Shown here piece by piece: positions 3,611-28,163 of a stretch of DNA of 36,166 nucleotides. Within the stretch, counting starts at the first letter, position 1, and the number at the start of each line of letters is the position of its first letter. Both the position numbers and the translations under genes were made by a program. Source of the DNA: a virus. Taxonomy: Duplodnaviria; Caudoviricetes. The notes beneath the pieces are model-generated. The model was not told where the DNA came from. It did not search any database and worked only from the letters and a program-made list of their open reading frames with translations. The stretch covers positions 1 through 36,166 of IMG/VR virus record IMGVR_UViG_3300007643_000052, one strand, 5' to 3'.

Positions 3611-3889
3611 TTAAATGGGGCAATCAGGGGTTTTATCAATGTGTGGGCTGTTCTCATTCGTGATGGACGCCCCCACGTTATCAGTTTTGATGGGATACCC
3701 AAGTCGCTTCATGAGGGCGAGCATGGGCTTCACACGCTCCCCCAGCCGGTAGCGGTTGGCAGTTTGGAGGTACGGGGCGGGAGATACTTGCTGGAGCCAC
3801 ACACCCAGTTCTACGTAGGTCTGGGGCCCCGCATCGTAGAGTCGTGTGGTTATGAGCCGGTATCGTTGCAATCGGTCGCTTTTTGTCAC
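3611..3889 (-). CDS. Hypothetical protein, possible winged-helix-like
   Basis: GTG with GAGG RBS; first gene of the leftward cassette; basic and helical. Confidence 0.6.
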   Translation of the reverse strand: MTKSDRLQRYRLITTRLYDAGPQTYVELGVWLQQVSPAPYLQTANRYRLGERVKPMLALMKRLGYPIKTDNVGASITNENSPHIDKTPDCPI

Positions 3890-4605
3890 CTTTTTTACCC
3901 TCGTTTGGAGTGAGTGAATGAGCCTACCCTTTTTGGGTACTTACAACATAACTTATGGTTGGAGTGTTGCAATTGTAAAGGGGTGTTTGGATTAAAAGAA
4001 TTGAAACGGGGTTGAGTGTATAAGTGTATAAGGAGGGGGGAGACGCTCTAAGTGTTTATGGGGCAGGGTTTAAGGTGTATATCCATTTTAATACTCCATA
4101 ATAGGAATTGATATAGGGAAAAGTTGAAACCTCTCTAATTGTGTATTGTTAGTATGTCTATTTGTATAGAAAGACGTGCAAATGGGATACAATTAGGGGG
4201 GTTTTTACTTTTTCTATAGTGAATGTGGCTTAGTGAGTATTGTTTTGGGGATGAACGTAAGTGTGCGTTGGATTATCGCCGGTTAACCGTTTAACCAACC
4301 CCCAAAACACCCCCTTTGTATAAATGCAACTAGGGATATCCCTAATGGACAAACGCTAAATCGTCTTAGGTGGTACTACATATAGCACCTAAGCGTGTGC
4401 GCCTACCATATGAAGCCTCATATCATGATGATATCACACATGGTACGTACACATAACCCCTTACACACACACAACATACACACCGAACATGAGGCGAACA
4501 GGTGGGCGTGTGCGGTGCGTGTGCAGTGGTCGGGGGGGCGGGTGTGACCTTTGCTTTCGTAAGTCGCGTGTGGGTATATGGTTATCTAGCAACCCCCTAC
4601 TCTCG

Positions 4606-4641
4606 CACTTATACAACTTGTACACTTATACAACTTATACA
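4606..4641. repeat. Four tandem ACTTRTAC(A) units
   Basis: cacttataca-acttgtac-acttataca-acttataca; two related copies in the opposite orientation at about 4014-4032 and one at 5048-5057. Confidence 0.75.
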
Positions 4642-4651
4642 AAGTTAAGCC

Positions 4652-4680
4652 TTTACAAACCCTCTCCTGTGTGGTATACT
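4652..4680 (+). promoter_or_regulatory. sigma70-like promoter TTTACA-17-(GTGG)TATACT, leaderless
   Basis: The -10 ends at 4680 and the ATG is at 4687 with no RBS. Confidence 0.7.
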
Positions 4681-4686
4681 GTCACC

Positions 4687-5043
4687 ATGAAAACAAGAAA
4701 CCCCCACCCACGTCTTCGGCTCAATGGCACCCATCACCAGAACCGTAAGCGGTATTTCGTCAACTCCCTCTGGACGAGGTACCGCATGACTGCGTCCGAG
4801 TTCATCAGCATGTACCACAGCCAACGTGGCCAGTGTGCGATCTGCCAGGGACGTATCCGCCTCGTGAGGCAGACCAGCGATCGGGCCAGCCTCATGAGCC
4901 TACGCGTCGACCACTGCCACCGCACAGGTAAGGTCAGGGGCTTCCTGTGCCACGGCTGCAACATACGTGTGGGGGCTGAGGAGAAGTGCAGGTACGGGGT
5001 GGCCCACCAAGATTGTCGTAAGTACCTGAACGCAAATGAGTAA
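4687..5043 (+). CDS. Recombination endonuclease VII family protein
   Basis: RYRMT..EF..M...Q.G.CAIC...L.VDHCH.TGKVRGFLC..CN signature. Confidence 0.92.
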   Translation: MKTRNPHPRLRLNGTHHQNRKRYFVNSLWTRYRMTASEFISMYHSQRGQCAICQGRIRLVRQTSDRASLMSLRVDHCHRTGKVRGFLCHGCNIRVGAEEKCRYGVAHQDCRKYLNANE

Positions 5044-5158
5044 AGTGCACTTATACAGTTCGTAAGAACCTACAAACTATTTGAAGGTCCGTCCCCGTCC
5101 ACCCGCAGATACCTCCATTCCCATCCAACGCCCTTACAACATTTTCATGTACTCTCAC

Positions 5159-5186
5159 TTGACTTTCACCAAAGCCGTGGTATACT
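5159..5186 (+). promoter_or_regulatory. sigma70-like promoter TTGACT-16-(GTGG)TATACT
   Basis: Near-consensus hexamers with an extended -10; intergenic. Confidence 0.75.
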
Positions 5187-5190
5187 ACAC

Positions 5191-5375
5191 GCGTGAAGAG
5201 TGCCACGCTCAATGAGACGGCTCTGCTTGACCTCCCGACGTGGGGCTCGATCCCACGAGCGGGACAAAGGTTTAGGACAGTAGTCGTTCAGTAGGTGCCC
5301 AACTATGAGTGGGGAGCCACGGGGAGATAACCCCCAGGAACTTGGCTTAGCAGCCGACACCTACTTTCGTCCTGA
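5191..5375 (+). ncRNA. Candidate structured RNA or 5' leader
   Basis: Nested pairings AGGAC/GTCCT, GTAGGTG/CACCTAC, CCCA/TGGG, AGCCA/TGGCT, GGGG/CCCC, plus a CGTGGG/CCCACG hairpin; directly downstream of a promoter. Confidence 0.45.
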
Positions 5376-5401
5376 TGACCGTTCACCCTTGGAGACCCAC
5401 C

Positions 5402-6184
5402 ATGTTCAACTTCCTAAAGAAACGTCCCACACGCAAAGAAGTCATCGCCGAGTGCAACCGCCTTGATAATCAGATCGCCGAGGACCGTGCAGGTAGCACA
5501 GCACTCCAGCACAAACTCACCCGCGAGATCACTGGCCTGCGGCATGCGAGATGCATCGACAACGACGCGTACTGCGGGCTGCAGACACTCTACAAACACG
5601 GACAAGCCACGTTACGTAAAGTGTGCGGTGAACTAGACGAGGCTTATAAGGAGTTGAAGGAAAGCAAAGGCGCGTTCGAGCTGCTCAATGACACCCATAC
5701 AATTACCGCCACCCTGCTTGACGACCAGCGAGTGCTCCGCCGTAAAGCAGAAGAGCGTGCGGGTGTGGCCGAACGTGAGCTGGCCAGCCTCCAATTCGTG
5801 AACGAGGTCGGTGGTGAGGCTCTTGACGAACAAGCCCAAAGTATTGAAGACCTGGGTGAACTCTACGAGCACGCCCAGCAAGTGTTTGTCACCGACAACT
5901 TCAAGGGGTACGCCCCGTACGGCGAAGACTGGACGGCACTTGTGTTGAAGGGGGACGACTCGTACGTTGAAGGCGGGCCCGCGTGGACCATGAGCATCAG
6001 CGTATATAGCGACGGAGAGCTGACATACATGGCGGACCTGTCGTTCACCTCCAAATCAGCCCGCGACGACGCCTTCGACCTGATGGACTTTGATAACGTC
6101 AAACGATTCGCTGATGACCCAGAGGGGTGCTTCGTTGTCAATGACGGTGAAGTCGATCTCGAAGGTACGTACTCAGAGGATTAA
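5402..6184 (+). CDS. Hypothetical protein with a coiled-coil N-terminal half and acidic C-terminal domain
   Basis: GGAG RBS before MFNFLKK; long ORF. Confidence 0.8.
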   Translation: MFNFLKKRPTRKEVIAECNRLDNQIAEDRAGSTALQHKLTREITGLRHARCIDNDAYCGLQTLYKHGQATLRKVCGELDEAYKELKESKGAFELLNDTHTITATLLDDQRVLRRKAEERAGVAERELASLQFVNEVGGEALDEQAQSIEDLGELYEHAQQVFVTDNFKGYAPYGEDWTALVLKGDDSYVEGGPAWTMSISVYSDGELTYMADLSFTSKSARDDAFDLMDFDNVKRFADDPEGCFVVNDGEVDLEGTYSED

Positions 6185-6192
6185 CCCGATCC

Positions 6193-6243
6193 GGTCAGGT
6201 AGAGCTGTGTGGCGGAGGGTCTCCCGCTCGCAGTTCCCTGGCC
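6193..6243 (+). other. Long intergenic hairpin
   Basis: GGTCAGG/CCTGGCC, GAGCTGTG/CGCAGTTC, GGCG/CGCT and GAG/CTC with several G-U pairs; no U tract follows. Confidence 0.55.
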
Positions 6244-6246
6244 CTT

Positions 6247-6325
6247 GGGGGCGAATGGATACGCCTCACAGGACAACCGCATGCGGCCCTGCTGAGCCAC
6301 GAGAGTTCGATTCTCTCCGCCTCCA
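6247..6325 (+). ncRNA. tRNA-like RNA resembling the tRNA-like domain of tmRNA, without an mRNA-like domain
   Basis: Acceptor stem GGGGGCG/CGCCTCC plus A with G3-U70; perfect T arm GAGAG-TTCGATT-CTCTC; stemless D-loop AATGGATACGC; extended helix CTCA-CAGG/CCTG-C-TGAG capped by CCG-CATG-CGG. Confidence 0.7.
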
Positions 6326-6368
6326 CTTTTATTCCGCTTCTCCTTACCTTCCGACAAGGACGTTTCCC

Positions 6369-6746
6369 ATGGCCGACGCACTCCTAGATAGCCTCTTCGC
6401 CCACGATCTCGCCCACCATCCACAACTACGCCACCGTGTTGAAATCATAGTGCTGCGTGTCGCTGCCACCATACTGGCCGAGCCCAACACCACCCCTGCA
6501 CACAACCAACGTGCCGCCCTCGCAGTCGAGGCCATCGCGGACCCCGTCTCCGTTGCACGCAGGGCAGCCTTGCTAGGGCTCGCAGTCACAGCATTGCCCG
6601 ACCTGATTACCGGGGCAACCAGTGTCAAGGAAGTGGTGGATAACAAGCAAGTCCTGCAGCAAGCTGACAGCCTGATTTCTGCGGCCGTCGTCGCAGGTTG
6701 GAACTCGTTGGCCGGTGTTTATACCCGTGAAGAGATCGGAGCGTAA
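6369..6746 (+). CDS. Conserved phage protein, probably virion-associated
   Basis: AAGGA RBS; RV...A.TI..E...TP.H.QR..LA...WNSLAG pattern. Confidence 0.75.
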   Translation: MADALLDSLFAHDLAHHPQLRHRVEIIVLRVAATILAEPNTTPAHNQRAALAVEAIADPVSVARRAALLGLAVTALPDLITGATSVKEVVDNKQVLQQADSLISAAVVAGWNSLAGVYTREEIGA

Positions 6747-6749
6747 GCG

Positions 6750-7502
6750 ATGCTGCATGGTATACTTGGTAGTGGGCTAATTCGGCCGGGTATGGGGATC
6801 TCCCCGGACACCCTCGACAACCTGTTGTTTTGGGGCGACCCGCAGGTAGGTGTCACCACTGAAGGTGGGGCGGTGTCCCTGTGGGAAGATCAGGGCCCTG
6901 AAGGTGACAATGCCACGCAGGGTACCGGGGTGGACCAGCCTGCACACACAAACTCCACGCCTGAGCAAATTGATTTTACGCCAAGTGACCGCCTGCGGTT
7001 TGCAGATTCTACGGTTCTGGCGTTCACCCGCACCACAGCGTTCTCCGTCGCAATGTGGTTGAACCTCGATGCGGCACCCACGGGGTTCATGTTCCTTTTT
7101 GGGAACCAAAATTCTGCGGGGGCCAACCTGAAGTGGTCGCTCCGCGGCGGCGTTTCCGGGCAGCGGGAACGTCTGTTACTGAATGCGGCTGATGCCGTAG
7201 GCACAGATACCACCGTATCCGATTCAAACGTATTTACGGGCACCGGATGGCAGTTCATCGCGGCGACGTATGATGGTGCTGGCACGGGTGTCCTGTACGT
7301 TGACGGTGCCGTAATCGCGTCCACGGGGGGGTCCGCCACCGCGGAAACACCCGCCGCCACAGTCACGTCAATGGGTGCTCGGCACGCAGATGGTGGCGGG
7401 GCCATGAACGGCAAACTGGGCGATGTGTACGCGTACGGCGATGTGTTGACTGCCGACGAGGTCCAGGGCCTCTACGAGTTCCGATCCAGCTACTTTGTTT
7501 AA
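6750..7502 (+). CDS. LamG/concanavalin-A-like jelly-roll protein
   Basis: VS.W.DQ...G.NATQ.T...QP, FSVAMW, WQFIAATYDG...LYVDG and G.LGDVYAY...LT.DEV..LY motifs. Confidence 0.88.
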   Translation: MLHGILGSGLIRPGMGISPDTLDNLLFWGDPQVGVTTEGGAVSLWEDQGPEGDNATQGTGVDQPAHTNSTPEQIDFTPSDRLRFADSTVLAFTRTTAFSVAMWLNLDAAPTGFMFLFGNQNSAGANLKWSLRGGVSGQRERLLLNAADAVGTDTTVSDSNVFTGTGWQFIAATYDGAGTGVLYVDGAVIASTGGSATAETPAATVTSMGARHADGGGAMNGKLGDVYAYGDVLTADEVQGLYEFRSSYFV

Positions 7503-7940: not shown

Positions 7941-8326
7941 TGGGTAAACCTGCCCCCTATAACTCGAAGCAGCTCACTCAGCATCTACGCGACCTGCTGG
8001 CCCAGGCCCACACCATGACGCTGGAGGGGGAGTACCAGACCAAGGGCGAGGCCTTGGTTGACCTTGTCATGAAGGAAGCGTTGGGTTGGGAGGAGAGCAT
8101 CGTCAATGATGAGGGTACGGAGATCAAGTCGGTTCACAAGCCGCAGCGGTGGGCGATCGAGTTGGTGTGGGACCGCATGGAGGGTAAGACGCCACAGTCT
8201 CTCGACCCCGGCGAGACCAAGATGACCGCCAAGGATACGGTCAAGGCCTTGGCCGTTGCACGGCTCAGTGCGTTGACCGCCGAGACTGTTGGCGAAGCGA
8301 AGAAAGGACCGCCGCCCCTTGCCTAA
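7940..8326 (+). CDS. terS: Putative terminase small subunit
   Basis: Directly upstream of and overlapping TerL; helical; AIELVWDRMEGKTPQ motif typical of TerS-like proteins. Confidence 0.6.
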   Translation: MGKPAPYNSKQLTQHLRDLLAQAHTMTLEGEYQTKGEALVDLVMKEALGWEESIVNDEGTEIKSVHKPQRWAIELVWDRMEGKTPQSLDPGETKMTAKDTVKALAVARLSALTAETVGEAKKGPPPLA

Positions 8327-10244
8327 CGCCTTCGCAAACCAGCCGGTGCTCCTCGACAGCTTCCCCCGCAAGCTGACGGTGTGGCACGACCCGATCTCTG
8401 GCATAGACGTGCCGAAAGACCCCACGCAAAACTTGACGTGGCGTGCAGGCATGCTGGAGATGGCGGAGGACGACCCGGACTTGCAGCTTGACCTGTACAC
8501 GGCGTGCTCCCAGTCGCTGCTTTTTTTCCTTAATGCGTTCGCGTTCACTCTGCGTATCTTCCAACCTGATGAAGTGACCGGCAAGAATGTGCAGGCGAAG
8601 AATGCTCACCTGCCGTTCGTGACTTGGGAGGTGCAGGATAAGCACTTGCTCCGCATCGAGAGTGCCATTGATAATGGCGAGGATCTGCTCACAGACAAGT
8701 CGCGTGACATGGGTGCTACCTGGGACCACATCGCCGTGTACGCCCACCGCCTACTGTTCCGAAGCAGTGAGACCCACCTGATGATTTCGCGTAAAGAAGA
8801 CGCGGTTGACCAGTTGGATGGACGCCCGAGCAACTACCCCAACGGCCCCCTGGCTGACCCCGGTACGCTGTTCGGCAAGCTCGACTACATCCTGTCTCGC
8901 CTACCCTCGTGGATGCTTCCGAACTTCAGCCGCAAGAAGCTCCACCTTGTGAACACGGACACCAGTTGCCGGGTCGACGGGGAGTCGGCCAATGCCAACG
9001 CGGGTTCGTCTGACCGGCGTACCTCCATTTTTCTCGATGAGATGGCTAAGATGGACGAAGGCGAATCCATCAAGCGATCGACTCGTGACGTTACTGCGTG
9101 CCGCCTTCCGTGTTCGACGCCCAACGGTGCAGGCACTGCATACTCCAAGTGGCGTATGAGTGGGACTATACCTGTGTTTATCCTGGCGTGGTGGGAGCAC
9201 CCTGAAAAGGGGTTGGGACGCACCACTGTGTACGACGAAGAGGTCGAACGGTGGTTCATCACGTCACCCTGGTACGCTAACGAAAAAGAACTGCGGTCAC
9301 CGAAGGAACTGGCGATTGAAGTGGACATGGACCACGTCGGTTCCGGCGACACGTTCTTTGAGGGCGTCGTGATCGAGCAGCACAAGCTCATGTTCGCTAA
9401 GCCTCCGCTGTCGAAGTTCAATATCAATTTCAAGAAAGCTGTGACAGACGCCGAGGTGCCCGCGGTGTTACAGCGTCGGCAGCTTAATAAGGTATCGGCC
9501 CGGCCGTCCGTCAAGGGTAAGTGGTCATGTTGGGCAGCCCTACCCACCGGGAGGCTCGACCAGACAAAGACGTATACGGTGGCGTGTGACATAGGGAAAG
9601 GCCAGGGGGCCTCGAACAGCACGGTTACTGTGATGTGTAACGAAACCCGGCAGAAGGTCATGGCGTACGCTGACGCGAACACGCCACCCTATGAGTTCGC
9701 AAAGACTGTGGTAGCCGCATGTCTGTGGGTCGGGGGACGCGACCGCCCCCTGCTGATCTGGGAGAACAACGGTGACCCCGGGTTCGACTTCGGCAATCAG
9801 GTCGTACGCACATATCAGTACCCAAACATTTACTTTGATCGTCAGGTGGGCACGCTCAGCCAGAAGACCGGCAAGCGGTTTGGCTGGCGGTCCAGCCGTG
9901 AGCAGAAGGCAGAGGCCCTCGGCATCCTGCGGCGTGCGTACGCCCACGGCCAGTTCACCAACCCTGATGAGGCGGCACTCAACGAGGCGTTGCAATACAT
10001 CACGTACGATAGCGGGGGCATCGGCCCCGCAGTGTTGGTGGAGGAAACCGCGGAAGCTCGCAAGACCCACGGTGACCGGGTGATCGCAGACATGCTTGCG
10101 GTCCTAGCCCGGGAGGGTAAGGGGCTCCGTAAGCCAGGGGCCCAGCCCGACGCGGGGGGTCGGTCGTTTAAACATAGGTTCGATGCCCACAAGAAACGAA
10201 GGCACGCCGGAAAAAGTGACCGCTTCGACTTCACCGCCGCATAA
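8319..10244 (+). CDS. terL: Terminase large subunit
   Basis: Walker A DKSRDMGATW, Walker B SIFLDE, STPNG coupling motif, RNase H-like ACDIGKG and HGDRVIA; TTG start after AAAGGA. Confidence 0.93.
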   Translation: MPNAFANQPVLLDSFPRKLTVWHDPISGIDVPKDPTQNLTWRAGMLEMAEDDPDLQLDLYTACSQSLLFFLNAFAFTLRIFQPDEVTGKNVQAKNAHLPFVTWEVQDKHLLRIESAIDNGEDLLTDKSRDMGATWDHIAVYAHRLLFRSSETHLMISRKEDAVDQLDGRPSNYPNGPLADPGTLFGKLDYILSRLPSWMLPNFSRKKLHLVNTDTSCRVDGESANANAGSSDRRTSIFLDEMAKMDEGESIKRSTRDVTACRLPCSTPNGAGTAYSKWRMSGTIPVFILAWWEHPEKGLGRTTVYDEEVERWFITSPWYANEKELRSPKELAIEVDMDHVGSGDTFFEGVVIEQHKLMFAKPPLSKFNINFKKAVTDAEVPAVLQRRQLNKVSARPSVKGKWSCWAALPTGRLDQTKTYTVACDIGKGQGASNSTVTVMCNETRQKVMAYADANTPPYEFAKTVVAACLWVGGRDRPLLIWENNGDPGFDFGNQVVRTYQYPNIYFDRQVGTLSQKTGKRFGWRSSREQKAEALGILRRAYAHGQFTNPDEAALNEALQYITYDSGGIGPAVLVEETAEARKTHGDRVIADMLAVLAREGKGLRKPGAQPDAGGRSFKHRFDAHKKRRHAGKSDRFDFTAA

Positions 10245-10253
10245 GGAATCACT

Positions 10254-12128
10254 ATGCCACTTGACATAACACCAAAAAAGTTGCAGGAGCAGGTTCATCG
10301 GGGCATTAAGCGTCACGAGAATTTCCGCAACGCCCGCACCATGTTCCTGCGTAACTACGTTGGGCAGTACTACGACCAGACCAATGGGGACATCGGGGCG
10401 GAACCCCTCAACCTGATATTCAACGCCATCCGCGTGCTCATCCCCAACATCGTTATGAACTTCCCGACCCACAAGGTGTCGTCGAACTTCCTGTACGCCA
10501 AGGACTACGCTGAGCTTCTTGGCATGGCTTTGGAGCAGCAGGACAAACAGATCGGGATTAAAGACGTGTACCGTCGTGTGATTGTGGATGCCATCTTCAC
10601 ACTTGGCATCCTCAAGACCGGAATCGCTTCGAGCGACTCGGTCTATGCCATTGATGAGAGCGATCAAGTAGACACTGGTGAGGTGTACACTGAGTGTGTG
10701 GACTTCGACAACTTCATCGCCGACCCCATGAGCCGTGAACACCTGTTCAGGGATGCCTCGTGGTTGGGTGACCGCATGACGGTGCCACGCTCGACGCTGT
10801 TGGAGAGCGGGTTGTACGACAACGCATTAATAGAGCAGCTCCCTGCAGCAGGCGGCGACTTGAAGCAGAAGAAGGCCGCTTCGGCTATGTCCATGCGGAG
10901 CATCAACCCGCAGGATGACCTGGACCTGTTCGATGAAGTGGAGATCGCGGAACTGTGGGTACCCTCCGCCGGTGCCTTGGTCACGGTCCCCGCGTCCGAG
11001 CATGTCGTCTTTGATGAGTACCTCCGAGTGGACGAGTACTATGGCCCGGTAAGCGGCCCCTACACCTTCCTCGCCCTGACTCCGCCGGTGCCGGGCAACC
11101 CCATGCCGATCCCGATGGTGGGGATTTGGAATGACCTGCACGTATTGGCCAACCGTATGGCCAAGAAGATTGTGGACCAAGCCCAGCGTCAGAAAGACGT
11201 AATCGGATATAAGAGCCAAGCCGCGGACGACGCCCAGTCCCTCAAGGACGCGAGCGACGGCGAGGCCGTGGCCGTGGATGACCCGGATGCCGTCAAGGTT
11301 CACTCGTTTGGCGGGCAGCAGAACAGCAATGAAGTCCACATGTCACAGCTCCAGGGTTGGTTCAACCAGATGGCTGCGAACCCAGAGGGTATGGCGGGCA
11401 ACCGCTTCGACGCGGACTCAGCCACCGAGGCCTCCATCCTAGCTGAGCGTGCCAGCGTCGGGCTTGAGGACATGAAGGATCTGGTGTACCAGATGGCCGC
11501 GGACGAGGGCTCCAAGCGTGCGTGGTACCTCCACACTGACCCGTTCATGCGGCTCCCCCTGATCCGCCGCGTAGAGCTGCCTGCACAGTACGCACAGAGC
11601 CCGCAGGGCCCTCAGATGACACAGCCTGCCCAGTTGGCGGACCAGCAGATCATCCTGACGCCAGAAGCCCGGCGTGGGGATTATCTGGATTACACGTTCA
11701 TGATCGAGCCTGGGTCGATGGGTCGCCGGGACAGTGGGTCGCGTCTCGCGGAGGCGATGGACTTCGCGGTCAAGATCATGCCCGCCATCATGGCCACGGC
11801 ACAGAACGCCATGATGCTCGGCATACCCCTCGACGCCAAGGCCATGCTGATCCGCATGGCGAAGGACCGGGGGATTACCTGGATGCACGAGGTCTTGTTC
11901 GACCCTGAGTTCCAGATGAAGATGAACCAGCTCGCGTTGATGGGCCCCGCCCTTGCGGAGTCGAAGGGCATGCCCAATGCGGGCCTGGGCAGTGGCGGAG
12001 GTCAACTGGGGGCGATCCTCCAGAACGGCCAGCCCGGGCAAGTGCAGAAGGGTGCCCCAAGTCAGCAAAAACAACAGCGTCAAACCGCCCAGCAAGGGGC
12101 GAACGAGTCACAGTCACAAATGAGATAA
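10254..12128 (+). CDS. Portal protein
   Basis: 624 aa directly after TerL; G.LKTG, SATEA..L motifs and a Q-rich tail as in P22/T7-like portals. Confidence 0.85.
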   Translation: MPLDITPKKLQEQVHRGIKRHENFRNARTMFLRNYVGQYYDQTNGDIGAEPLNLIFNAIRVLIPNIVMNFPTHKVSSNFLYAKDYAELLGMALEQQDKQIGIKDVYRRVIVDAIFTLGILKTGIASSDSVYAIDESDQVDTGEVYTECVDFDNFIADPMSREHLFRDASWLGDRMTVPRSTLLESGLYDNALIEQLPAAGGDLKQKKAASAMSMRSINPQDDLDLFDEVEIAELWVPSAGALVTVPASEHVVFDEYLRVDEYYGPVSGPYTFLALTPPVPGNPMPIPMVGIWNDLHVLANRMAKKIVDQAQRQKDVIGYKSQAADDAQSLKDASDGEAVAVDDPDAVKVHSFGGQQNSNEVHMSQLQGWFNQMAANPEGMAGNRFDADSATEASILAERASVGLEDMKDLVYQMAADEGSKRAWYLHTDPFMRLPLIRRVELPAQYAQSPQGPQMTQPAQLADQQIILTPEARRGDYLDYTFMIEPGSMGRRDSGSRLAEAMDFAVKIMPAIMATAQNAMMLGIPLDAKAMLIRMAKDRGITWMHEVLFDPEFQMKMNQLALMGPALAESKGMPNAGLGSGGGQLGAILQNGQPGQVQKGAPSQQKQQRQTAQQGANESQSQMR

Positions 12129-12139
12129 GGAGACCCCCG

Positions 12140-12481
12140 ATGCCAGTTTACGAATACGAATGTGCGGCGTGTGGACATACGTCTGAGGAGTTTCAGTTCA
12201 TGCAGGACGACCGGCTGACCCAGTGTCCAGGGTGCTTGGATGAAACCTACGTCAAGCAGGTCAGCATGCCCCACACTGATATGAAGGCGTTCCGTAAGCC
12301 GATCGAGATGTACTCGGTCGCCTTGGACACCCCCCAGGAGATCGCGGATTTCAAGCGATCCTGCCCTGATATCGAGTGCGATGCCAACCTGAACAACGAG
12401 CTGGGGGGCATCCCCGTGGCCCACAACCGCAAGGAGAAGAAGCAGATCATGGAGGCGATGGGAGTCGTCGAACGAAAATAA
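12140..12481 (+). CDS. FmdB-family zinc-ribbon protein
   Basis: MPVYEYECAACGH...CPGC signature; AAGGAG RBS. Confidence 0.9.
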   Translation: MPVYEYECAACGHTSEEFQFMQDDRLTQCPGCLDETYVKQVSMPHTDMKAFRKPIEMYSVALDTPQEIADFKRSCPDIECDANLNNELGGIPVAHNRKEKKQIMEAMGVVERK

Positions 12482-12494
12482 CCCTAACAAACAC

Positions 12495-12522
12495 TTGACA
12501 AACACTTTTACCGTGGTATAAT
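12495..12522 (+). promoter_or_regulatory. Consensus sigma70 promoter TTGACA-16-(GTGG)TATAAT
   Basis: Perfect hexamers upstream of the scaffold and capsid genes. Confidence 0.85.
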
Positions 12523-12571
12523 ACCATAGTCCCTACCCTCATTTTTTTTGAGCAGCGACAGGAGAGAACCG

Positions 12572-13672
<1,101 letters not shown>

Positions 13673-13714
13673 TAACCCCGCCACCGACATAGGTGGCACT
13701 ACCGGAGTTTTACC

Positions 13715-14836
13715 ATGGGTGTATCCAACGCCGCTCTCGCCGACCTCATCAAAACCACGCTTGACGACTTGCCCAAGGGCCAGTTTGAAGTCATGTGGGA
13801 CAGCCAGAATTACGAATTTTGCCAGATTTACCAGAAGCACCGTCGTGGTGTTGACGGCGGCACTTCGATCACCCGTAATGTGGTCCTAGACCGCAACGGC
13901 CGTGCTCGCTACCGTCGCCTCTATGATACGGACAACCCGCAGGTTGACAACAACCAGCACACCATCAATGTGCCTTGGACCCAGCTTTCCACCGACTACT
14001 CGTGGGACGTGCTGGAGATCATGCGGAACAAAAACAGCTCCAAGGGCTTCATCAACCTGATGAAATCCCGCCGAGTTGAACGCATGTGGGACTTGGCTGA
14101 GCTGATCGAGGAGCGTGGTTGGCTAACCCCCACCTCCGCCACCGACACGCTCTTCCCGTACGGCATCCCGTACTACCTCAACTACCTGAACGACGGCGTG
14201 ACGGCAGCAGGGTTCTCGGGCCAGACTATTCGCTACCAGGGCGGCACCACGGGCACCATCTGTGCTGGTATCGACGCGGCTACTGAAGCCAAGTGGCGGA
14301 ACTACGCCGACGTTTACACCAAGGTGGACAACGACTTCTTGCGTAAGCTGCGGCTTGCCATCAAGCGTACTCGGTTCCGCCCAGCCCCGATCGTCGAAGA
14401 TCCGGGCCAAACGAAGGTCGGTTCGCCGATCAAGATGTACGGCTCTGACCAGTTGACTCTGGAATTGGAAGACCTCGCAGATAAGCGGGACGACAATACC
14501 ACACCTGTGGATCTTGCCAACAAGAACCTGCAGCACAGCTTCGATGGTACCGTGCAGTTCAACCGTATCCCCATTGTGTACATCCCCCAGCTCGACACCA
14601 TCACGGTGATCGATGGTGGCAGTAACTCGTTCTCCCCGGACCCCCTCTACTGCGTGGACTGGACCAAAATCCAGCCCATCGTGCAGGAAGGGTACTGGAT
14701 GGTTGAGTCGGAGCCCCTGACTGACCGTGGCCAACACACCACGTTCACCACGTTCCTCGACGGTTCTCACCAGAACCTCTGCATCAACCGCCGCACCGCG
14801 GGCTTCGTGATGCACAAGACCATCCCTGCTTCGTAA
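13715..14836 (+). CDS. Major capsid protein
   Basis: 373 aa after the scaffold; GGTSI..NV, W.NY and FNRIPIVY patterns; strong codon bias; followed by a terminator. Confidence 0.85.
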   Translation: MGVSNAALADLIKTTLDDLPKGQFEVMWDSQNYEFCQIYQKHRRGVDGGTSITRNVVLDRNGRARYRRLYDTDNPQVDNNQHTINVPWTQLSTDYSWDVLEIMRNKNSSKGFINLMKSRRVERMWDLAELIEERGWLTPTSATDTLFPYGIPYYLNYLNDGVTAAGFSGQTIRYQGGTTGTICAGIDAATEAKWRNYADVYTKVDNDFLRKLRLAIKRTRFRPAPIVEDPGQTKVGSPIKMYGSDQLTLELEDLADKRDDNTTPVDLANKNLQHSFDGTVQFNRIPIVYIPQLDTITVIDGGSNSFSPDPLYCVDWTKIQPIVQEGYWMVESEPLTDRGQHTTFTTFLDGSHQNLCINRRTAGFVMHKTIPAS

Positions 14837-22817: not shown

Positions 22818-25800
22818 ATGCCAACTCGTGAAGACGCCCTAGCCGAACTGTCCCGCCGAGCCTCCAGCGGAGAGCTGTCATCTAAACAGCAGGCGGCATT
22901 TGGCGAGCTGCAAAAGCGGGGGGTCATACCCACTGCACAGAAGACATCGGCAGTCTCCCCGTCGATTCAGAAGATGCTCACCGACTCAGGCTACGAAGGT
23001 GCGGAGCGTTTGGCGAACACAGGCATCACCCCCGGGACGGCTTCTGAATTTGCCGTTGCCCACATGCAGGCAACTGAGAAGCGTACCGGCCGACGTCCTG
23101 ATCCGAAGCAGATGGAAGCCGCCAACAACATGTTCAAGGGCATGGCTGGTCGTGAAGATCGTACTGATGTGGACCAGTTCCAGGAGCAGCTCAAGAGTCA
23201 GCGTGACTCCCGTAACGAGACGGCCGTGGGCCGGGCATCGAACGTGGGCCTTAACTTCGTGCAAGGTGTCGCTCGACCCAGCACAGCCGTTATCGGTACT
23301 GTCGCTCCTGGGTACGCCGCGGATCTGCGGGAGCAGCAGCAACAGGCGTACAACCCGAGTGGTGGGTTCAGTGGTGTCGTAGGTGGTGGTCTCGCTGAGG
23401 GTGCGAACCTCGCGGCTTCCTTGGCCATGGGTCCAGCCGGAGTCGTTGGGTACTACGGTGCTCAGGGTACCGGCAGTGCCCGTACGGACATAGCAGAGCG
23501 GCGGGCGGCTGGCCAAGAAATCAGTGGTGGCATGGAGTTTGCCTCCGCGTTGGCCCAGGGAACGGTCGAGGGGCTTAGTGGGCTAGTTGGTGGTCGGATC
23601 GTACAGTCACTCGGACGGTATGCACGACCCCTCGCCGCTGAAGCGTCGGAGGCCGGTAGCCGCAGGCTCATACAAGCCGCCACCCGCGAAGCTGGGCTAG
23701 TGCTCGGTGAGGGTGCGGAGGAGGCCGTTACCGAAATAGTTCAGAACGCCATCAAGCAGAAAAGCTACGACCCGGAAGCCGGGCTCATGGACGGGGTCGC
23801 CGAGGCATTCGCCATGGGCCTAGTGCTCGCCCCCGTGGGCGGGGCCCTGGTTGGCGGGGCAACGGGCGGTAAGAAGGCCCCGGCCCCCTCCCCCGCCGTC
23901 GTAGTGGCAGAGCAACATGCGGAGGTTAAGCACGCTCACCGCCTGTCTGCTGATGAACTGGGCCGCAGGACGGGCACACTCGATGCTGATACCGAAGGTG
24001 AAGTAGAAGGCAACCAGTACTTCCAGCGTGGGCAGATGGGTTCTGCCGAAGGTGGAGACGGTGACTGGGTCAAGGTGACCATACCCCTAGACCAGTTGAC
24101 GGCGTCCCCCCGATCCGGTACGCGGGTTGACGGGTACGCCGGGCAGACTGCGGACACAGCACCGCCACTGGTAGCCGGTATCATGAAGGAGGGCGACGGG
24201 AGCATCGAGATTATCGACGGCAACAACCGCCATGCTGCGGCGATTGCCCGTGGAGACACGACGGCGGAGGTCTACGTGCCCGACGCTCTCGCTCGCCGGT
24301 TCCAGCCCCTGGGCCTCCCTTCGCCCCTGGACATCGCTCAGCGAGAGCTGGGGGACGCGGAGACAGCCGTGGACAGGGCCCAGCAGGATCTGCAGACCGC
24401 GGCCGGTCCAAGTGCGGGGGCAATCCAGGTGGACCCCTCCGGCCGTGCAGGCACAGACCTGGAGCATGACGCCCTGAACAAACAGGCCTCAGCCGCCATC
24501 AAACCACAGTACGACCCAGCCCGCCTCCTTCCTGATAACGCTCCCCGCTTTTCCGCGGATGAGGACGGGTCCGTGTCTGACAACCGTGTCGAGGAGAAGC
24601 GTAGCATCGGCCTGCGTGAAGGACGCCAGCGTGTCGATGACTTGACTGAAGCGGGTAAGATGCGGGAGGCTAAGAAAGAAATCGAACGCCTTAAGAAGGA
24701 AGCCCGTACGGACCCGCTTACCCGCATAGGTAACAAGCGTGCTTTTGACGAGAAGATAACCAAGCTCAAGGCCACGGTGGAAAAGACCGGTCGGTCACGC
24801 AAGGTCGCGTTCTTCGACCTGGGCAACCTCAAGGTGGCCAATACGATACTTGGACACGAGGGTGCGAACAGCCTGTTGGTATCCATAACGAAGAAGGCCG
24901 AGAATGCACTAAAGGGCCGTGCGGATATCTTCCGTACCGGTGGAGATGAGTTCATCGTCGTGCCCAAGCGGTCCATGAACGAGAAGCAAACACGTCAACT
25001 CGTCGCTGAAGTCGAAGCTGCGGTCGGCCACCAGGACTTGGTCCCGGGGAAGGTGTCCGCGTTCATCGCTGGGGATGTGGCGACACTGGAGCCCGGCGGC
25101 ACCGTTGCAGAAGAGCTTGACGCTGCAGACAAACGAAGCGAAGGCCGTAAGTCAGAGATAAAACAAAAACGTGGTGAGACCACCACCCGGGCAGAGGCTG
25201 AGGTTGCTGTTGCAGAGTTCCAGCAGGGCGTTGTAACACACTCTGATTCGGTGACGGTGACTAGTGCTGTGGACTCAGCTCGACGCAACCCCGAGGCTGT
25301 TCTACGCGTGCGTGAAGCGAACGCTAACCTGCGGGCCAAGCGTCGTGCGGTACAGCAGCTCCGTGGCCAAGGCGAGCTGTCGAGGCTGGTCGCTGAGTAC
25401 AAAAAATCCACAGCGTTGGACCAGGGTACCAAGCCTCACTACAAGCCGATCTCCCCCGCTGAAGGCCGGAGCATATCGCGTGCATACGAAACGATGCAAC
25501 ACGATCCTACCAACCCTGATGTCATCCTCGCTTACGAATCGTTTAAGAAAGAAACACTCGATCAGTTCTTGGCCCTGCAAGACGCTGGGTTCACTTTTGA
25601 TCTCCGTCCTGTGCTGTCGGTAGCGGAGCTGTACCCTTCCGTTACGGAGCTGGCCACGGACGTGCTGGCCAACAAGAGCCTCAGTGTGAACGCGGACCCC
25701 GGCGACATGCCGTCAGACCACCCGATGGCCCAAGAGGTCGGCCCGCTCGCCCCAGGGTGGACGCACAACCAAGTGTTCCGAGCTGTTCATGATGTCATAG

Positions 25801-28163
25801 GGCACGTCAACCAGGGCCACGCGTTCACGATTGAGGGCGAAGAGAACGCATGGCGGGACCACTCGACGACGTACTCGGACGCAGCGAAGGGGGCTCTTGC
25901 CACCGAGACACGCGGTCAGTCTTCTTGGGTTGGCTACGGCCCGCATGGAGCTGTGAACAGGAAGGCGGTCGCTGAGGATAGGATCGAAGACGTCACATTC
26001 CCTGGGCAGAAAGCCGGGCTCCTGCCGGAGCAATACTGGACGGCCCCCGGGACGGAAGCTGCCGCGGCACCTGTCACCGATCCTGATGTGTTCATCCAGG
26101 CTGTGGCCCCCGGCATCGAACGCATTCCTGGCAAGAGCCGTGTCAAAGAGGGTATCAGCCGCGTGGGTGTACCCGTGTCAGCAGTGCTGCGTAACTGGTC
26201 CCCGCGTCTCTACGGTAAGCTCAAGACCCTGCAGGCACGGTACAAGGCCGAGCGGCATGATGCGGACACCCAGGTGCAGAACATGACACGTCAGCTTAAC
26301 GCTGTGCTTGATCGTAGGCAACGCCTTGAGTTTGACTACGCCGTGTCCACGCAGGACTTCGACACCGCCCACAACATGCTACGGGAAGCTGACCCTACCA
26401 AAGCCGAAGACGTGTGGCAGCAGTTCGAGCTTGTTCAACGCATGAAGGACAACGTCTACGCTGAGGCCAAGGGCATCGGCATGAAGATCGGCTACCGCCA
26501 GCAGCACATGCCGCGGGCCATGAAGCCGGGTGCGTATGACTCGTGGTACGAAGCACGTCACGGCGTGGAGCCCGACGAGCTGCAACGTGCCCTGGCTGAG
26601 GAATCCAGACGCTTAGGACGTGACCTCACTGATACTGAGAAGGTCCATCTTGCGAACCAATGGTTGGCCGGTTGGAATCCCCGCAAGCCTGGGCAGACCA
26701 CACCACGCATCGCTGGCCTGCGATCAGTGGACGACCTCACGATCGAAGAGTTTCAAAAGTTCTACCAGCCGCTAGACCAAGCATTGTTCTCATACTTTGA
26801 CCGTATGATCTACAATGTACATAAGGCTAAGTTGTTCGGTAAGGATGTGGGTGAAGAGTCACTTGACCAGACCATCGGCCGTATCATGATCGACCAGAGC
26901 CACGGCATTGACCGGCTCAACTCGCACCAGAAACGTCGCATGCGGTCCATTATAAATAGCATCTTCACAACTGGCGAGCAGTCCCCGGCTAAGGCCCTGC
27001 GGGCTATCCGCGACCTCGGTTACATGGGTACGTTGCTTGACCCCTCGTCCGCAGCCATCCAGTTCGGCGATCTGGCCATGGTGGCCGCTCGTGACGGCGT
27101 CGGTCAAGCCCTGAAGTCCATACCAGCGTCTATGCGTGAGACGGTACTCACTGCCAAGAACCTGGGACTTCAACACATTAGTGCCGAGTACGGTGCCCCG
27201 GGTGCCCTGACGAAGGCCCTCAACCGCGGGTTCAAGGTCGTAGGGTTCACCAAGGTGGACACCGCCATGAAGACAGTGAACATGGTGTCGTCGTTCCAGA
27301 AGGCCCAACGCCTACTGAAGAATCCTGATAGCAAAGCGTACCGTGCGTGGGAGCAGCAGTGGGCCCCCGTGTTCGGTGAAGCAGAGTTCGCTGACCTTAA
27401 ACGCGACCTGTCCACTGGCCTGAAGTCAGACCTCGTGACCACATATGCCTACATGGACCTCAGCGAGACGCAGCCGATCGACATGCTGGAGATGCCACAG
27501 TATTACTTGGATCACCCCAACGGCCGGGTCATGTACCAGCTCAAGACCTTCGCCCTTCGCCAGTTCGGATTCATCCGTGGACGGGCCTACGACAAGATCG
27601 CAAAGGGCGTTCGCAACAGCGACTACAAGATGGCGGGGGCAGGCCTGCGGGAACTCGTGCAGATCCTGATGATGCTGAGCCTGTCAGGGATGACGTTCGA
27701 TATGATCCGCGATTGGATCACCGGCAAGAACGTTAACCCGCGTGACTCGTTCGTTGATGGTCTGCTGGCCACTCACCTTGGCTCAACGTACCTGCTCGAC
27801 AATGCTTCAAGTGACGGCCCCGGCTCAGCCGCAGTGGACTTCCTCACACCGCCCGCAGTCGGCATGGTGAACCGCATGACGAAGGACGCGATGCGGGGTG
27901 AGTACAAGTCTCTCAAGTATCTGCCGTTCGGTAAGATGGTCTATGGGTGGACACCTTCCGGCCAAGCAGAGGTAGCCAAGTACGGCCGCAAAGACGTGCT
28001 GTCGGCTGCCAGCTCCGCTTATGCGGACGGGGACAGGGCCGCGGCGTCAACGTACGTTAAGGCGTTCAACGACGCAATGAAATCAGAGGGCCGCGAGGAG
28101 CGGCTCACAATGTCATCGGTGCGGCAGTCTGCTGCTCGCCGCAACAAGGAGGATAAGAAATGA
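22818..28163 (+). CDS. Large polyvalent internal virion protein with ParB-like, GGDEF and HDxxGH domains
   Basis: 1781 aa; G/A-rich membrane-like N-terminal region (EGAEEAVTEIVQN); IIDGNNR; TDPLT..N.RAF...GGDEF; FRAVHDVIGH; helical C-terminus (YLDHPNGRVMYQLKTF). Confidence 0.85.
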   Translation: MPTREDALAELSRRASSGELSSKQQAAFGELQKRGVIPTAQKTSAVSPSIQKMLTDSGYEGAERLANTGITPGTASEFAVAHMQATEKRTGRRPDPKQMEAANNMFKGMAGREDRTDVDQFQEQLKSQRDSRNETAVGRASNVGLNFVQGVARPSTAVIGTVAPGYAADLREQQQQAYNPSGGFSGVVGGGLAEGANLAASLAMGPAGVVGYYGAQGTGSARTDIAERRAAGQEISGGMEFASALAQGTVEGLSGLVGGRIVQSLGRYARPLAAEASEAGSRRLIQAATREAGLVLGEGAEEAVTEIVQNAIKQKSYDPEAGLMDGVAEAFAMGLVLAPVGGALVGGATGGKKAPAPSPAVVVAEQHAEVKHAHRLSADELGRRTGTLDADTEGEVEGNQYFQRGQMGSAEGGDGDWVKVTIPLDQLTASPRSGTRVDGYAGQTADTAPPLVAGIMKEGDGSIEIIDGNNRHAAAIARGDTTAEVYVPDALARRFQPLGLPSPLDIAQRELGDAETAVDRAQQDLQTAAGPSAGAIQVDPSGRAGTDLEHDALNKQASAAIKPQYDPARLLPDNAPRFSADEDGSVSDNRVEEKRSIGLREGRQRVDDLTEAGKMREAKKEIERLKKEARTDPLTRIGNKRAFDEKITKLKATVEKTGRSRKVAFFDLGNLKVANTILGHEGANSLLVSITKKAENALKGRADIFRTGGDEFIVVPKRSMNEKQTRQLVAEVEAAVGHQDLVPGKVSAFIAGDVATLEPGGTVAEELDAADKRSEGRKSEIKQKRGETTTRAEAEVAVAEFQQGVVTHSDSVTVTSAVDSARRNPEAVLRVREANANLRAKRRAVQQLRGQGELSRLVAEYKKSTALDQGTKPHYKPISPAEGRSISRAYETMQHDPTNPDVILAYESFKKETLDQFLALQDAGFTFDLRPVLSVAELYPSVTELATDVLANKSLSVNADPGDMPSDHPMAQEVGPLAPGWTHNQVFRAVHDVIGHVNQGHAFTIEGEENAWRDHSTTYSDAAKGALATETRGQSSWVGYGPHGAVNRKAVAEDRIEDVTFPGQKAGLLPEQYWTAPGTEAAAAPVTDPDVFIQAVAPGIERIPGKSRVKEGISRVGVPVSAVLRNWSPRLYGKLKTLQARYKAERHDADTQVQNMTRQLNAVLDRRQRLEFDYAVSTQDFDTAHNMLREADPTKAEDVWQQFELVQRMKDNVYAEAKGIGMKIGYRQQHMPRAMKPGAYDSWYEARHGVEPDELQRALAEESRRLGRDLTDTEKVHLANQWLAGWNPRKPGQTTPRIAGLRSVDDLTIEEFQKFYQPLDQALFSYFDRMIYNVHKAKLFGKDVGEESLDQTIGRIMIDQSHGIDRLNSHQKRRMRSIINSIFTTGEQSPAKALRAIRDLGYMGTLLDPSSAAIQFGDLAMVAARDGVGQALKSIPASMRETVLTAKNLGLQHISAEYGAPGALTKALNRGFKVVGFTKVDTAMKTVNMVSSFQKAQRLLKNPDSKAYRAWEQQWAPVFGEAEFADLKRDLSTGLKSDLVTTYAYMDLSETQPIDMLEMPQYYLDHPNGRVMYQLKTFALRQFGFIRGRAYDKIAKGVRNSDYKMAGAGLRELVQILMMLSLSGMTFDMIRDWITGKNVNPRDSFVDGLLATHLGSTYLLDNASSDGPGSAAVDFLTPPAVGMVNRMTKDAMRGEYKSLKYLPFGKMVYGWTPSGQAEVAKYGRKDVLSAASSAYADGDRAAASTYVKAFNDAMKSEGREERLTMSSVRQSAARRNKEDKK

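What the first reader, a model, noticed from the sequence alone, without database searches (positions are those of the whole stretch)
6247..6325. 79-nt mini-tmRNA: an alanine-identity tRNA-like domain with no message
Seen: a 7-bp acceptor stem GGGGGCG/CGCCTCC with G3-U70 and discriminator A, and a perfect T arm (GAGAG TTCGATT CTCTC). The D-loop has no stem but contains GG (AATGGATACGC, compare tmRNA ATTCTGGATTCGAC). An irregular long helix replaces the anticodon arm, followed by a short CAC linker (GAC in tmRNA). CCA is not encoded. Known: these are the hallmarks of the tmRNA tRNA-like domain, which is charged by AlaRS and bound by SmpB; message-less tmRNAs are known from jakobid mitochondria. 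Inference: this could be a phage SmpB decoy that blocks trans-translation, a tag-free ribosome rescue or Ala-adding RNA, or a decoy for host tRNA-targeting defences.
Basis: partly seen in the sequence, partly recalled or inferred. Interest (0 to 1): 0.85.

Follow-up and report, generated by a model that had tools for sequence, protein, structure and literature searches.

The report
Phage tag-less mini-tmRNA, altered SmpB joint
This uncultured phage carries a real 79-base sequence that copies only the tRNA-like end of the bacterial ribosome-rescue RNA (tmRNA), a form already published for one phage (DS6A) and here found to be common in phages; it likely competes with the host's rescue-and-tag system, although this copy has changed some of the bases that the partner protein SmpB normally grips.

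Summary
The feature is real. Window 6247-6325 matches both ends of Rfam tmRNA (44.9 bits, E 2e-16, just under the cut-off of 47), with 35 nt in place of 326 model positions; ARAGORN calls nothing.

It is not a new kind. It has the architecture of the 'TLD only' tmRNA of mycobacteriophage DS6A (69% identical), reported to inhibit host tmRNA in E. coli (PMC11915505, PMC4131195). This scan found the same kind before in at least 7 other genomes.

The family is large: about 610 IMG/VR stretches, against 9 database entries of this form. Its helices covary, and alanine identity holds when not imposed (G3-U70 in 94 of 101).

This copy keeps G3-U70, A73, G19 and A334, but has A17, C20, C333 and an extra connector base; 0 of 86 full-length tmRNAs had A17 or C20. 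Only 1 of 80 loci from related phages has such an element, and it has lost G3-U70.

Best reading: a likely alanylated, tag-less competitor of host tmRNA. Decay or an SmpB-independent role remains open. Expression and host are untested.

The parts
6247..6325 (+). CDS-less (TLD-only) tmRNA gene, DS6A type; a mature RNA would need 3' trimming and CCA completion (inferred)
   Evidence: Rfam tmRNA 44.9 bits, E 2e-16; family model R2 55.5 bits; 69% identity to the DS6A element
6247..6253 (+). Acceptor stem 5' strand; pairs with 6318-6324; G3 (6249) - U70 (6322) wobble
   Evidence: sequence, fold; family conservation
6254..6264 (+). Stemless D region. E. coli-numbered G13 G14 A15 U16 A17 C18 G19 C20 at 6257-6264: G19, C18 and A15 kept; U17 is A, A20 is C
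   Evidence: family and full-length comparisons; SmpB contacts from PMC8363625 passages
6265..6296 (+). Shortened helix 2 arm replacing pseudoknots and tag frame: 8 bp with one bulge (6292), ACAA/C internal loop, apical CCG-CAUG-CGG cap (6277-6286)
   Evidence: fold of the arm alone; covariation in the family; cap motif counts
6297..6300 (+). Connector CCAC: A334 and C335 kept, G333 is C, one extra base
   Evidence: insertion against model R2; shifted register in 3 of 93 and 4 of 207 family members
6301..6317 (+). T arm, 5 bp, loop TTCGATT
6318..6325 (+). Acceptor 3' strand and discriminator A73
6193..6243 (+). About 20-bp imperfect hairpin in the 5' leader, between the stop of ORF 5375-6184 and the RNA; possible processing or stabilising element (inferred); not evident before the relative's copy (by eye)
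   Evidence: z -3.97, 1 of 200 shuffles as good, region chosen after seeing it; L558 upstream sequence
6326..6371 (+). U-rich 3' trailer, then AAGGA ribosome-binding-like site and ATG of the next ORF (6369-6746), which opens the run leading to the packaging and head genes
   Evidence: such a U tract follows only 2 of 90 family members but also the relative's copy L558

Best explanation
This is a phage gene for a tmRNA cut down to its tRNA-like domain (DS6A type), whose RNA would likely be processed and charged with alanine by host enzymes and would likely bind host SmpB, probably more weakly than host tmRNA, and so compete with it at stalled ribosomes without being able to add the degradation tag. 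Steps. SHOWN here: sequence, family membership, selection on the helices and on alanine identity across the family. INFERRED from tmRNA biology: (1) co-transcription from upstream sigma-70-like sites (4652-4680, 5159-5186; no terminator-like site found in 3700-7000); (2) RNase P and 3' trimming plus CCA addition; (3) alanylation through G3-U70 and A73; (4) binding of SmpB and EF-Tu; (5) entry into empty A sites and acceptance of the nascent chain; (6) with no resume codon, no tag is made, so host tagging falls and SmpB is tied up; further alanines may be added. The benefit to the phage (sparing its truncated proteins, or hampering host recovery late in infection) is inferred only.
For: Same architecture as the DS6A element (model R2 scores DS6A 65.4 and the window 55.5 bits, other hits in tRNA arrays 24 or less, 3' ends of full tmRNAs 21-33). 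[quoted passage not shown] A TLD fragment plus SmpB makes polyalanine without mRNA in vitro (review passage citing Shimizu and Ueda 2006, PMC3929946). With the acceptor not imposed, 96 of 101 unique hits have U70-C71-C72-A73 and 94 have G3-U70. With the cap motif, about 190 stretches have U70 against 3 matches without it, of which 1 is a family member. With the SmpB site not imposed, U17 is kept in 86, G19 in 87, A20 in 81 and A334 in 89 of 93. This copy keeps G19, whose change to C abolishes SmpB binding, and two of the three bases (A15, A334) of the Trp122 pocket (PMC8363625).
Against: This copy has A17 (third pocket base), C20, C333 and an extra connector base; 0 of 86 full-length tmRNAs had A17 or C20. 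It scores under the Rfam cut-off, whereas 8 of 8 other minis tested pass (51.9-73.9 bits). No twin was found: the metagenome pattern gave 18 hits, none a mini (15 called full tmRNA by ARAGORN). The lineage mostly lacks the element: 1 of 80 loci and 0 of 20 whole records, 13 of them at least 90% complete. That one relative (L558) has lost G3-U70, A73 and the UCGAC motif but kept the stems. Conserved alanine identity could also reflect stability rather than ribosome entry. No expression data; host unknown.
Confidence: 0.45

Rival explanations
1. A decaying copy: the family works as described, but in this phage lineage the gene is under relaxed selection and this copy has partly lost SmpB binding.
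For: Four departures at the SmpB joint and a bulge in helix 2. Absent from 79 of 80 related loci and 20 of 20 whole records. The only related copy has lost alanine identity. No twin found.
Against: Acceptor, T arm, G3-U70, A73, G13-G14, C18-G19, A334-C335 and the cap are all intact at 70% or less identity to any other member. Two unrelated viral copies (L384, L410) share A17, C20 and a longer connector, which looks like a recurring variant. Patchiness is usual for accessory phage genes (established knowledge).
Confidence: 0.2
2. SmpB-independent use of the tRNA shape in this lineage: a processing mark (RNase P site plus U-rich trailer) at the head of the packaging operon, or a decoy for host nucleases that attack tRNA or tmRNA.
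For: The window copy and L558 lie at the same place upstream of the accessory and terminase genes. Both keep the stems through different sequences, both are off-type at the joint, and both have a U tract that only 2 of 90 family members have. Many family members sit among head genes. Defence systems with SmpB-like domains are predicted to target tmRNA (PMC11090510 passages).
Against: Two copies only. A processing mark would not need G3-U70, which this copy keeps. No defence target was identified, and the CoCoNuT link is itself a prediction.
Confidence: 0.15
3. A passive SmpB sponge that never needs to be charged or to enter the ribosome.
For: [quoted passage not shown] The family conserves the SmpB joint about as well as full-length tmRNAs do.
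Against: G3-U70 and A73 are nearly invariant while acceptor pairs 4-6 covary freely. This copy is weakest exactly at the SmpB joint.
Confidence: 0.12
4. True tag-free rescue: the RNA adds one or more alanines and the ribosome is then freed by drop-off or back-up factors, so phage translation gains.
For: Template-free polyalanine synthesis by TLD plus SmpB. CDS-less tmRNAs persist in mitochondria together with SmpB (PMC11915505).
Against: The one in vivo report is of inhibition. No release factor, SmpB or other partner recurs among 150 neighbouring ORFs; no SmpB in this contig (77% complete).
Confidence: 0.06
5. An ordinary or pseudo-tRNA, an attachment-site remnant, or chance.
For: Under the Rfam gathering score; folding z only -1.41.
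Against: No D stem; a 4-nt apical loop that varies across the family; ARAGORN calls nothing here and misses 143 of 146 family members. Both tmRNA ends are present around a covarying arm, whereas attachment sites carry one end (established knowledge). No integrase family matched the 37 window ORFs scanned; one resolvase among 150 neighbours.
Confidence: 0.02

Closest known systems
'TLD only' tmRNA of Mycobacterium phage DS6A (NC_023744.1, 28478-28557; tmRNA Website tmID 11587; 'Standard, no CDS' form of Nawrocki, Petrov and Williams 2025, PMC11915505)
   Same: Phage-encoded, standard gene order, about 80 nt, G3-U70, A73, stemless D region, helix 2 with A-rich internal loop and CCG-CAYG-CGG cap, C at 333, CCA not encoded, intergenic and unannotated; 69% identical.
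   Different: DS6A keeps UCGAC and a 3-nt connector; the window copy has ACGCC and a 4-nt connector. The carrier here is an uncultured phage whose putative capsid protein has no match among 50,697 GenBank phage records.
Standard bacterial tmRNA (ssrA; Rfam RF00023)
   Same: Both ends of the tRNA-like domain, alanine identity, T loop, G19, A334.
   Different: No pseudoknots, resume codon or tag frame (35 nt for 326 model positions); A17 and C20 were not seen in 86 full-length examples.
CDS-less organellar tmRNAs (jakobid and oomycete mitochondria, RF02544; about 65-bp Mallomonadaceae plastid genes)
   Same: No tag frame (PMC11915505 passages); the 62-68 nt class of phage elements is of similar size.
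   Different: Organellar, mostly circularly permuted, and the compartment's own tmRNA with nucleus-encoded SmpB; here an extra gene brought by a phage into a cell that presumably has its own tmRNA.
RqcH/RqcP alanine tailing (Bacillus; PMC8373112, search listing only)
   Same: Possible outcome: template-free C-terminal alanines.
   Different: Protein-driven, on split 50S subunits, with ordinary tRNA-Ala; no homology. A functional analogy only, untested.

Membership tests
CDS-less standard-order tmRNA (DS6A type) | 5' and 3' tmRNA ends in standard order forming a 7-bp acceptor stem and T arm | tested here: met
CDS-less standard-order tmRNA (DS6A type) | G3-U70 and A73 alanine identity | tested here: met
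   6249/6322 and 6325; family 94 and 97 of 101
CDS-less standard-order tmRNA (DS6A type) | No tag frame or pseudoknots; helix 2 closed by a short cap | tested here: met
   32-nt arm; same cap as DS6A; R2 55.5 bits
CDS-less standard-order tmRNA (DS6A type) | SmpB-binding joint (U17, C18, G19, A20, G333, A334, 3-nt connector) | tested here: inconclusive
   C18, G19, A334 kept; U17, A20, G333 and connector length changed; binding cannot be computed here
CDS-less standard-order tmRNA (DS6A type) | Expressed, processed, alanylated; inhibits host tmRNA | not testable with these tools
   bench property; see Tried and rejected for the sequencing-run search
Standard tmRNA (RF00023) | Tag-coding frame and pseudoknot ring | tested here: not met
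   35 nt replace 326 model positions; ARAGORN finds no tmRNA
Standard tmRNA (RF00023) | Rfam gathering score 47 | tested here: not met
   44.9 bits
tRNA-Ala or other canonical tRNA | D stem and 5-bp anticodon stem with 7-nt loop | tested here: not met
   no D stem, 4-nt apical loop, variable in the family; ARAGORN 0; tRNAscan-SE was not available
Permuted (two-piece) or mitochondrial tmRNA | 3' half upstream of 5' half | tested here: not met
   standard order; no listed hit to these families in 5800-6800, though one same-clan overlap was left out unnamed

The most novel reading that the evidence does not exclude
Phage mini-tmRNAs are a widespread viral alanine-tailing or rescue-hijacking system acting on 70S ribosomes, and copies like this one (A17, C20, lengthened connector; also L384 and L410) form a subclass whose joint has been rewired for a divergent SmpB, or to bait host defence proteins with SmpB-like domains.
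Probability: 0.15. Interest if true: 0.8.

Novelty: new member of a known kind. Interest (0 to 1): 0.45.

Why it matters
The form is published from one phage and 9 database entries. Here it appears in several hundred viral contigs, with covarying helices and fixed alanine identity, and ARAGORN misses 143 of 146. If it works as inferred, phages routinely interfere with trans-translation, the main bacterial ribosome-rescue route and an antibiotic target, using an 80-nt RNA. The natural variants (consensus joint, altered joint, no alanine identity, 63-nt class) give a ready series for asking whether a message-less tmRNA blocks, tails or rescues, which also bears on the unexplained mitochondrial forms. 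This copy adds an off-type variant, not a new system.

Tried and rejected
Sequencing runs: none was listed for 5900-6800; no evidence on expression either way.
Host: not found.
First pattern had too long a gap and missed. Model R1 was built with the structure off by one column and was not used.
The script stopped with an error after printing the long-class and most short-class figures.
The filter drops the window copy itself (bulged helix 2), and its 207 elements include at least one 3' end of a full tmRNA (L389).
Genome scan: most of the 120 hits were 3' ends of ordinary tmRNAs; 29 had perfect acceptor and T stems, a few by chance. I reused the full-length ones as a control (a few of the 86 are mis-parsed).
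Conserved partner gene: none among 150 of 168 neighbouring ORFs; ORF picking was mechanical, and 35 of 93 loci had an unevaluated ORF overlapping the element.
Origin by a single deletion between the two GC-RY-G-Y copies of helix 2: both copies occur in 35 of 81 full-length tmRNAs, but about 21-22 and 23-24 nt from the joint, against 11-12 nt for the cap in the minis, so one deletion does not explain the size.
ORF 6090-6746 across the element: rejected as a TTG extension of the ATG-6369 ORF, which has its own ribosome-binding-like site.
Literature: 7 searches showed no paper describing a widespread phage family; Mao 2009 was not held; the supplement of PMC11915505 gave 0 hits for four terms, so the list of the 9 no-CDS entries was not seen; subscription papers and bioRxiv supplements were not searchable.

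Full report
Observation. Rfam tmRNA matches both ends (44.9 bits, E 2e-16, gathering 47) with 35 nt where the model has 326 positions; nothing in the window reaches a gathering score and ARAGORN finds no gene. The matching pattern never occurred in 100 shuffles. The free energy alone is unremarkable (z -1.41), so the case rests on homology and covariation.

Setting. The window is a whole linear viral contig, estimated 77% complete, with no SmpB match. The element lies between ORF 5375-6184 and ORF 6369-6746, on the strand of the downstream lectin-like, putative terminase, portal and capsid genes (the terminase label rests on position and recalled motifs). The host could not be assigned.

Precedent. 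The top-ranked blastn hit among 50,697 phage records is DS6A (E 0.01). Its element has the same plan, including the A-rich internal loop and CCG-CAYG-CGG cap, at 69% identity. PMC4131195 (passages) lists DS6A as 'TLD only' and suggests SmpB titration. PMC11915505 (parts 1-3 of 5 read) counts 9 'Standard, no CDS' sequences among 97,179 and says the DS6A form inhibits endogenous tmRNA in E. coli. The original paper (Mao 2009) was not held. Earlier notes of this scan reached the same reading in at least 7 other genomes; they are not independent evidence, and I borrow only the word 'joint' from them.

The family. A strict pattern gave 120 loci from 13 of 64 parts of IMG/VR, about 610 stretches in all. 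Because it imposed the acceptor, I ran three further scans, each leaving one feature free.
(a) Acceptor free: of 101 unique hits, 96 have U70-C71-C72-A73, 94 have G3-U70 and 91 have a perfect acceptor stem; four of the five exceptions have a broken T stem.
(b) SmpB joint free: of 93 unique hits (120 matches, 1 dropped at an edge), U17 is kept in 86, C18 in 79, G19 in 87, A20 in 81 and A334 in 89, with the register set by best pairing and so approximate.
(c) U70 excluded: 3 matches in the whole collection against about 190 with U70; one is a family member.
Helix 2, counted without alignment in 119 elements of 73-83 nt, pairs at 0.94 to 0.60 over seven positions against 0.39-0.46 for permuted partners. 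On a MAFFT alignment of 31 members chosen for equal D-region length, all 7 pairs show changes on both sides; relatedness among sequences is not corrected. CCA is encoded in 54 of 207. ARAGORN misses 143 of 146; 21 of 98 longer loci have a tRNA within 1 kb; none has a full tmRNA nearby. Neighbours are ordinary head, lysis and replication genes with no recurring partner.

This copy. A model built without it scores it 55.5 bits, DS6A 65.4, 3' ends of full tmRNAs 21-33 and other hits in tRNA arrays 24 or less. It keeps alanine identity, G19 (whose change to C abolishes SmpB binding) and A15 and A334 of the Trp122 pocket (PMC8363625 passages). But U17 is A, A20 is C, G333 is C, and the connector has an extra base. 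None of 86 full-length tmRNAs had A17 or C20. Two unrelated viral copies share the combination (L384, L410); no twin was found in metagenomes (18 hits, none a mini). Among relatives found by the capsid protein, 1 of 80 loci has an element (32 reach at least 2.2 kb upstream of the terminase) and 0 of 20 whole records do; the search method finds the known positive. That relative, L558, sits at the same place, keeps its stems, and has lost G3-U70, A73 and UCGAC. This weighs against assuming that the family's function holds in full in this lineage.

Mechanism. For the family, selection on both the SmpB joint and alanine identity fits an RNA that is charged, binds SmpB and EF-Tu, and enters stalled ribosomes. 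A TLD fragment with SmpB makes polyalanine without mRNA in vitro (review passage, PMC3929946), AlaRS reads G3-U70 and A73 (PMC3968760 passages), and the DS6A form inhibits host tmRNA. Lacking a message, it would displace host tmRNA and prevent tagging. For this copy I give that 0.45, decay 0.20, an SmpB-independent use of the tRNA shape 0.15, passive sponge 0.12, true tag-free rescue 0.06, and tRNA or chance 0.02. Every step after the sequence analysis is inferred. [quoted passage not shown] The defence-decoy idea leans on a prediction (PMC11090510 passages).

Verdict. A real new member of a known kind, with an off-type SmpB joint. The form and the decoy idea are in print. The breadth of the family was not found in my seven paper searches, which cover only open-access text; supplements I could not see may list more members. 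Interest 0.45; 0.8 if the family proves to be a viral alanine-tailing system or this variant has a different partner (probability 0.15).

Noticed in passing
L558:106-187 (IMGVR_UViG_3300031216_000572): A related phage (capsid protein 76% identical) has a mini-tmRNA at the same genomic place with perfect stems but G3-C70, discriminator C and no UCGAC; it is the only such family member among 3 matches of a whole-collection scan.
   Followed up: partly
window 6193-6243: Stable hairpin of about 20 bp directly before the RNA (z -3.97, chosen after seeing it).
   Followed up: partly
window 22818-28163, residues about 630-735: The 1781-aa protein holds a GGDEF (diguanylate cyclase-type) domain above the Pfam cut-off, with a GGDEF motif at residue 708.
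   Followed up: partly
window 4652-4680 and 5159-5186 (+): Two sigma-70-like sites, 10 of 12 matches each with TG extension; the number is not above shuffles (2 against a mean of 2.4).
   Followed up: no
window 8289-14836: Putative terminase (no Pfam, PHROG or PDB match; named from position and recalled motifs), portal (weak SU10 portal match) and capsid (weak PHROG match) belong to an uncultured phage group with 681 capsid homologues and no GenBank phage match.
   Followed up: partly
L031, L032, L038, L061; L008, L026, L072, L076, L169: Family members lie just upstream of ClpP-type genes (4 loci) or between prohead protease and capsid genes (5 loci), i.e. inside head operons.
   Followed up: no
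L071 and L227: Two copies about 67 kb apart on one 136-kb contig (IMGVR_UViG_3300027749_000047).
   Followed up: no
L004, L007, L018, L022, L025, L048, L100, L102 and others: A short class of 59-68 nt (15 unique) in which helix 2 is a plain hairpin.
   Followed up: partly
L082:500-621: Y-RNA-like (YrlA, under the cut-off) and tRNA matches just upstream of a mini-tmRNA.
   Followed up: no
L369, L373, L376, L381-L383 and similar: Recurring 72-nt tRNA-array genes with G3-U70 and a TTGCA loop but weak D and T stems; probably divergent tRNA-Ala (ARAGORN calls L382 so), not this family.
   Followed up: no
L247, L252, L314, L315, L316, L323, L335, L344 and others: Intact minis in assemblies labelled Actinomycetota, Bacillota, Phycisphaerales, Gemmatimonadota, Bacteroidota, Prochlorococcus and more; mostly MAGs, prophage context not checked.
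   Followed up: partly
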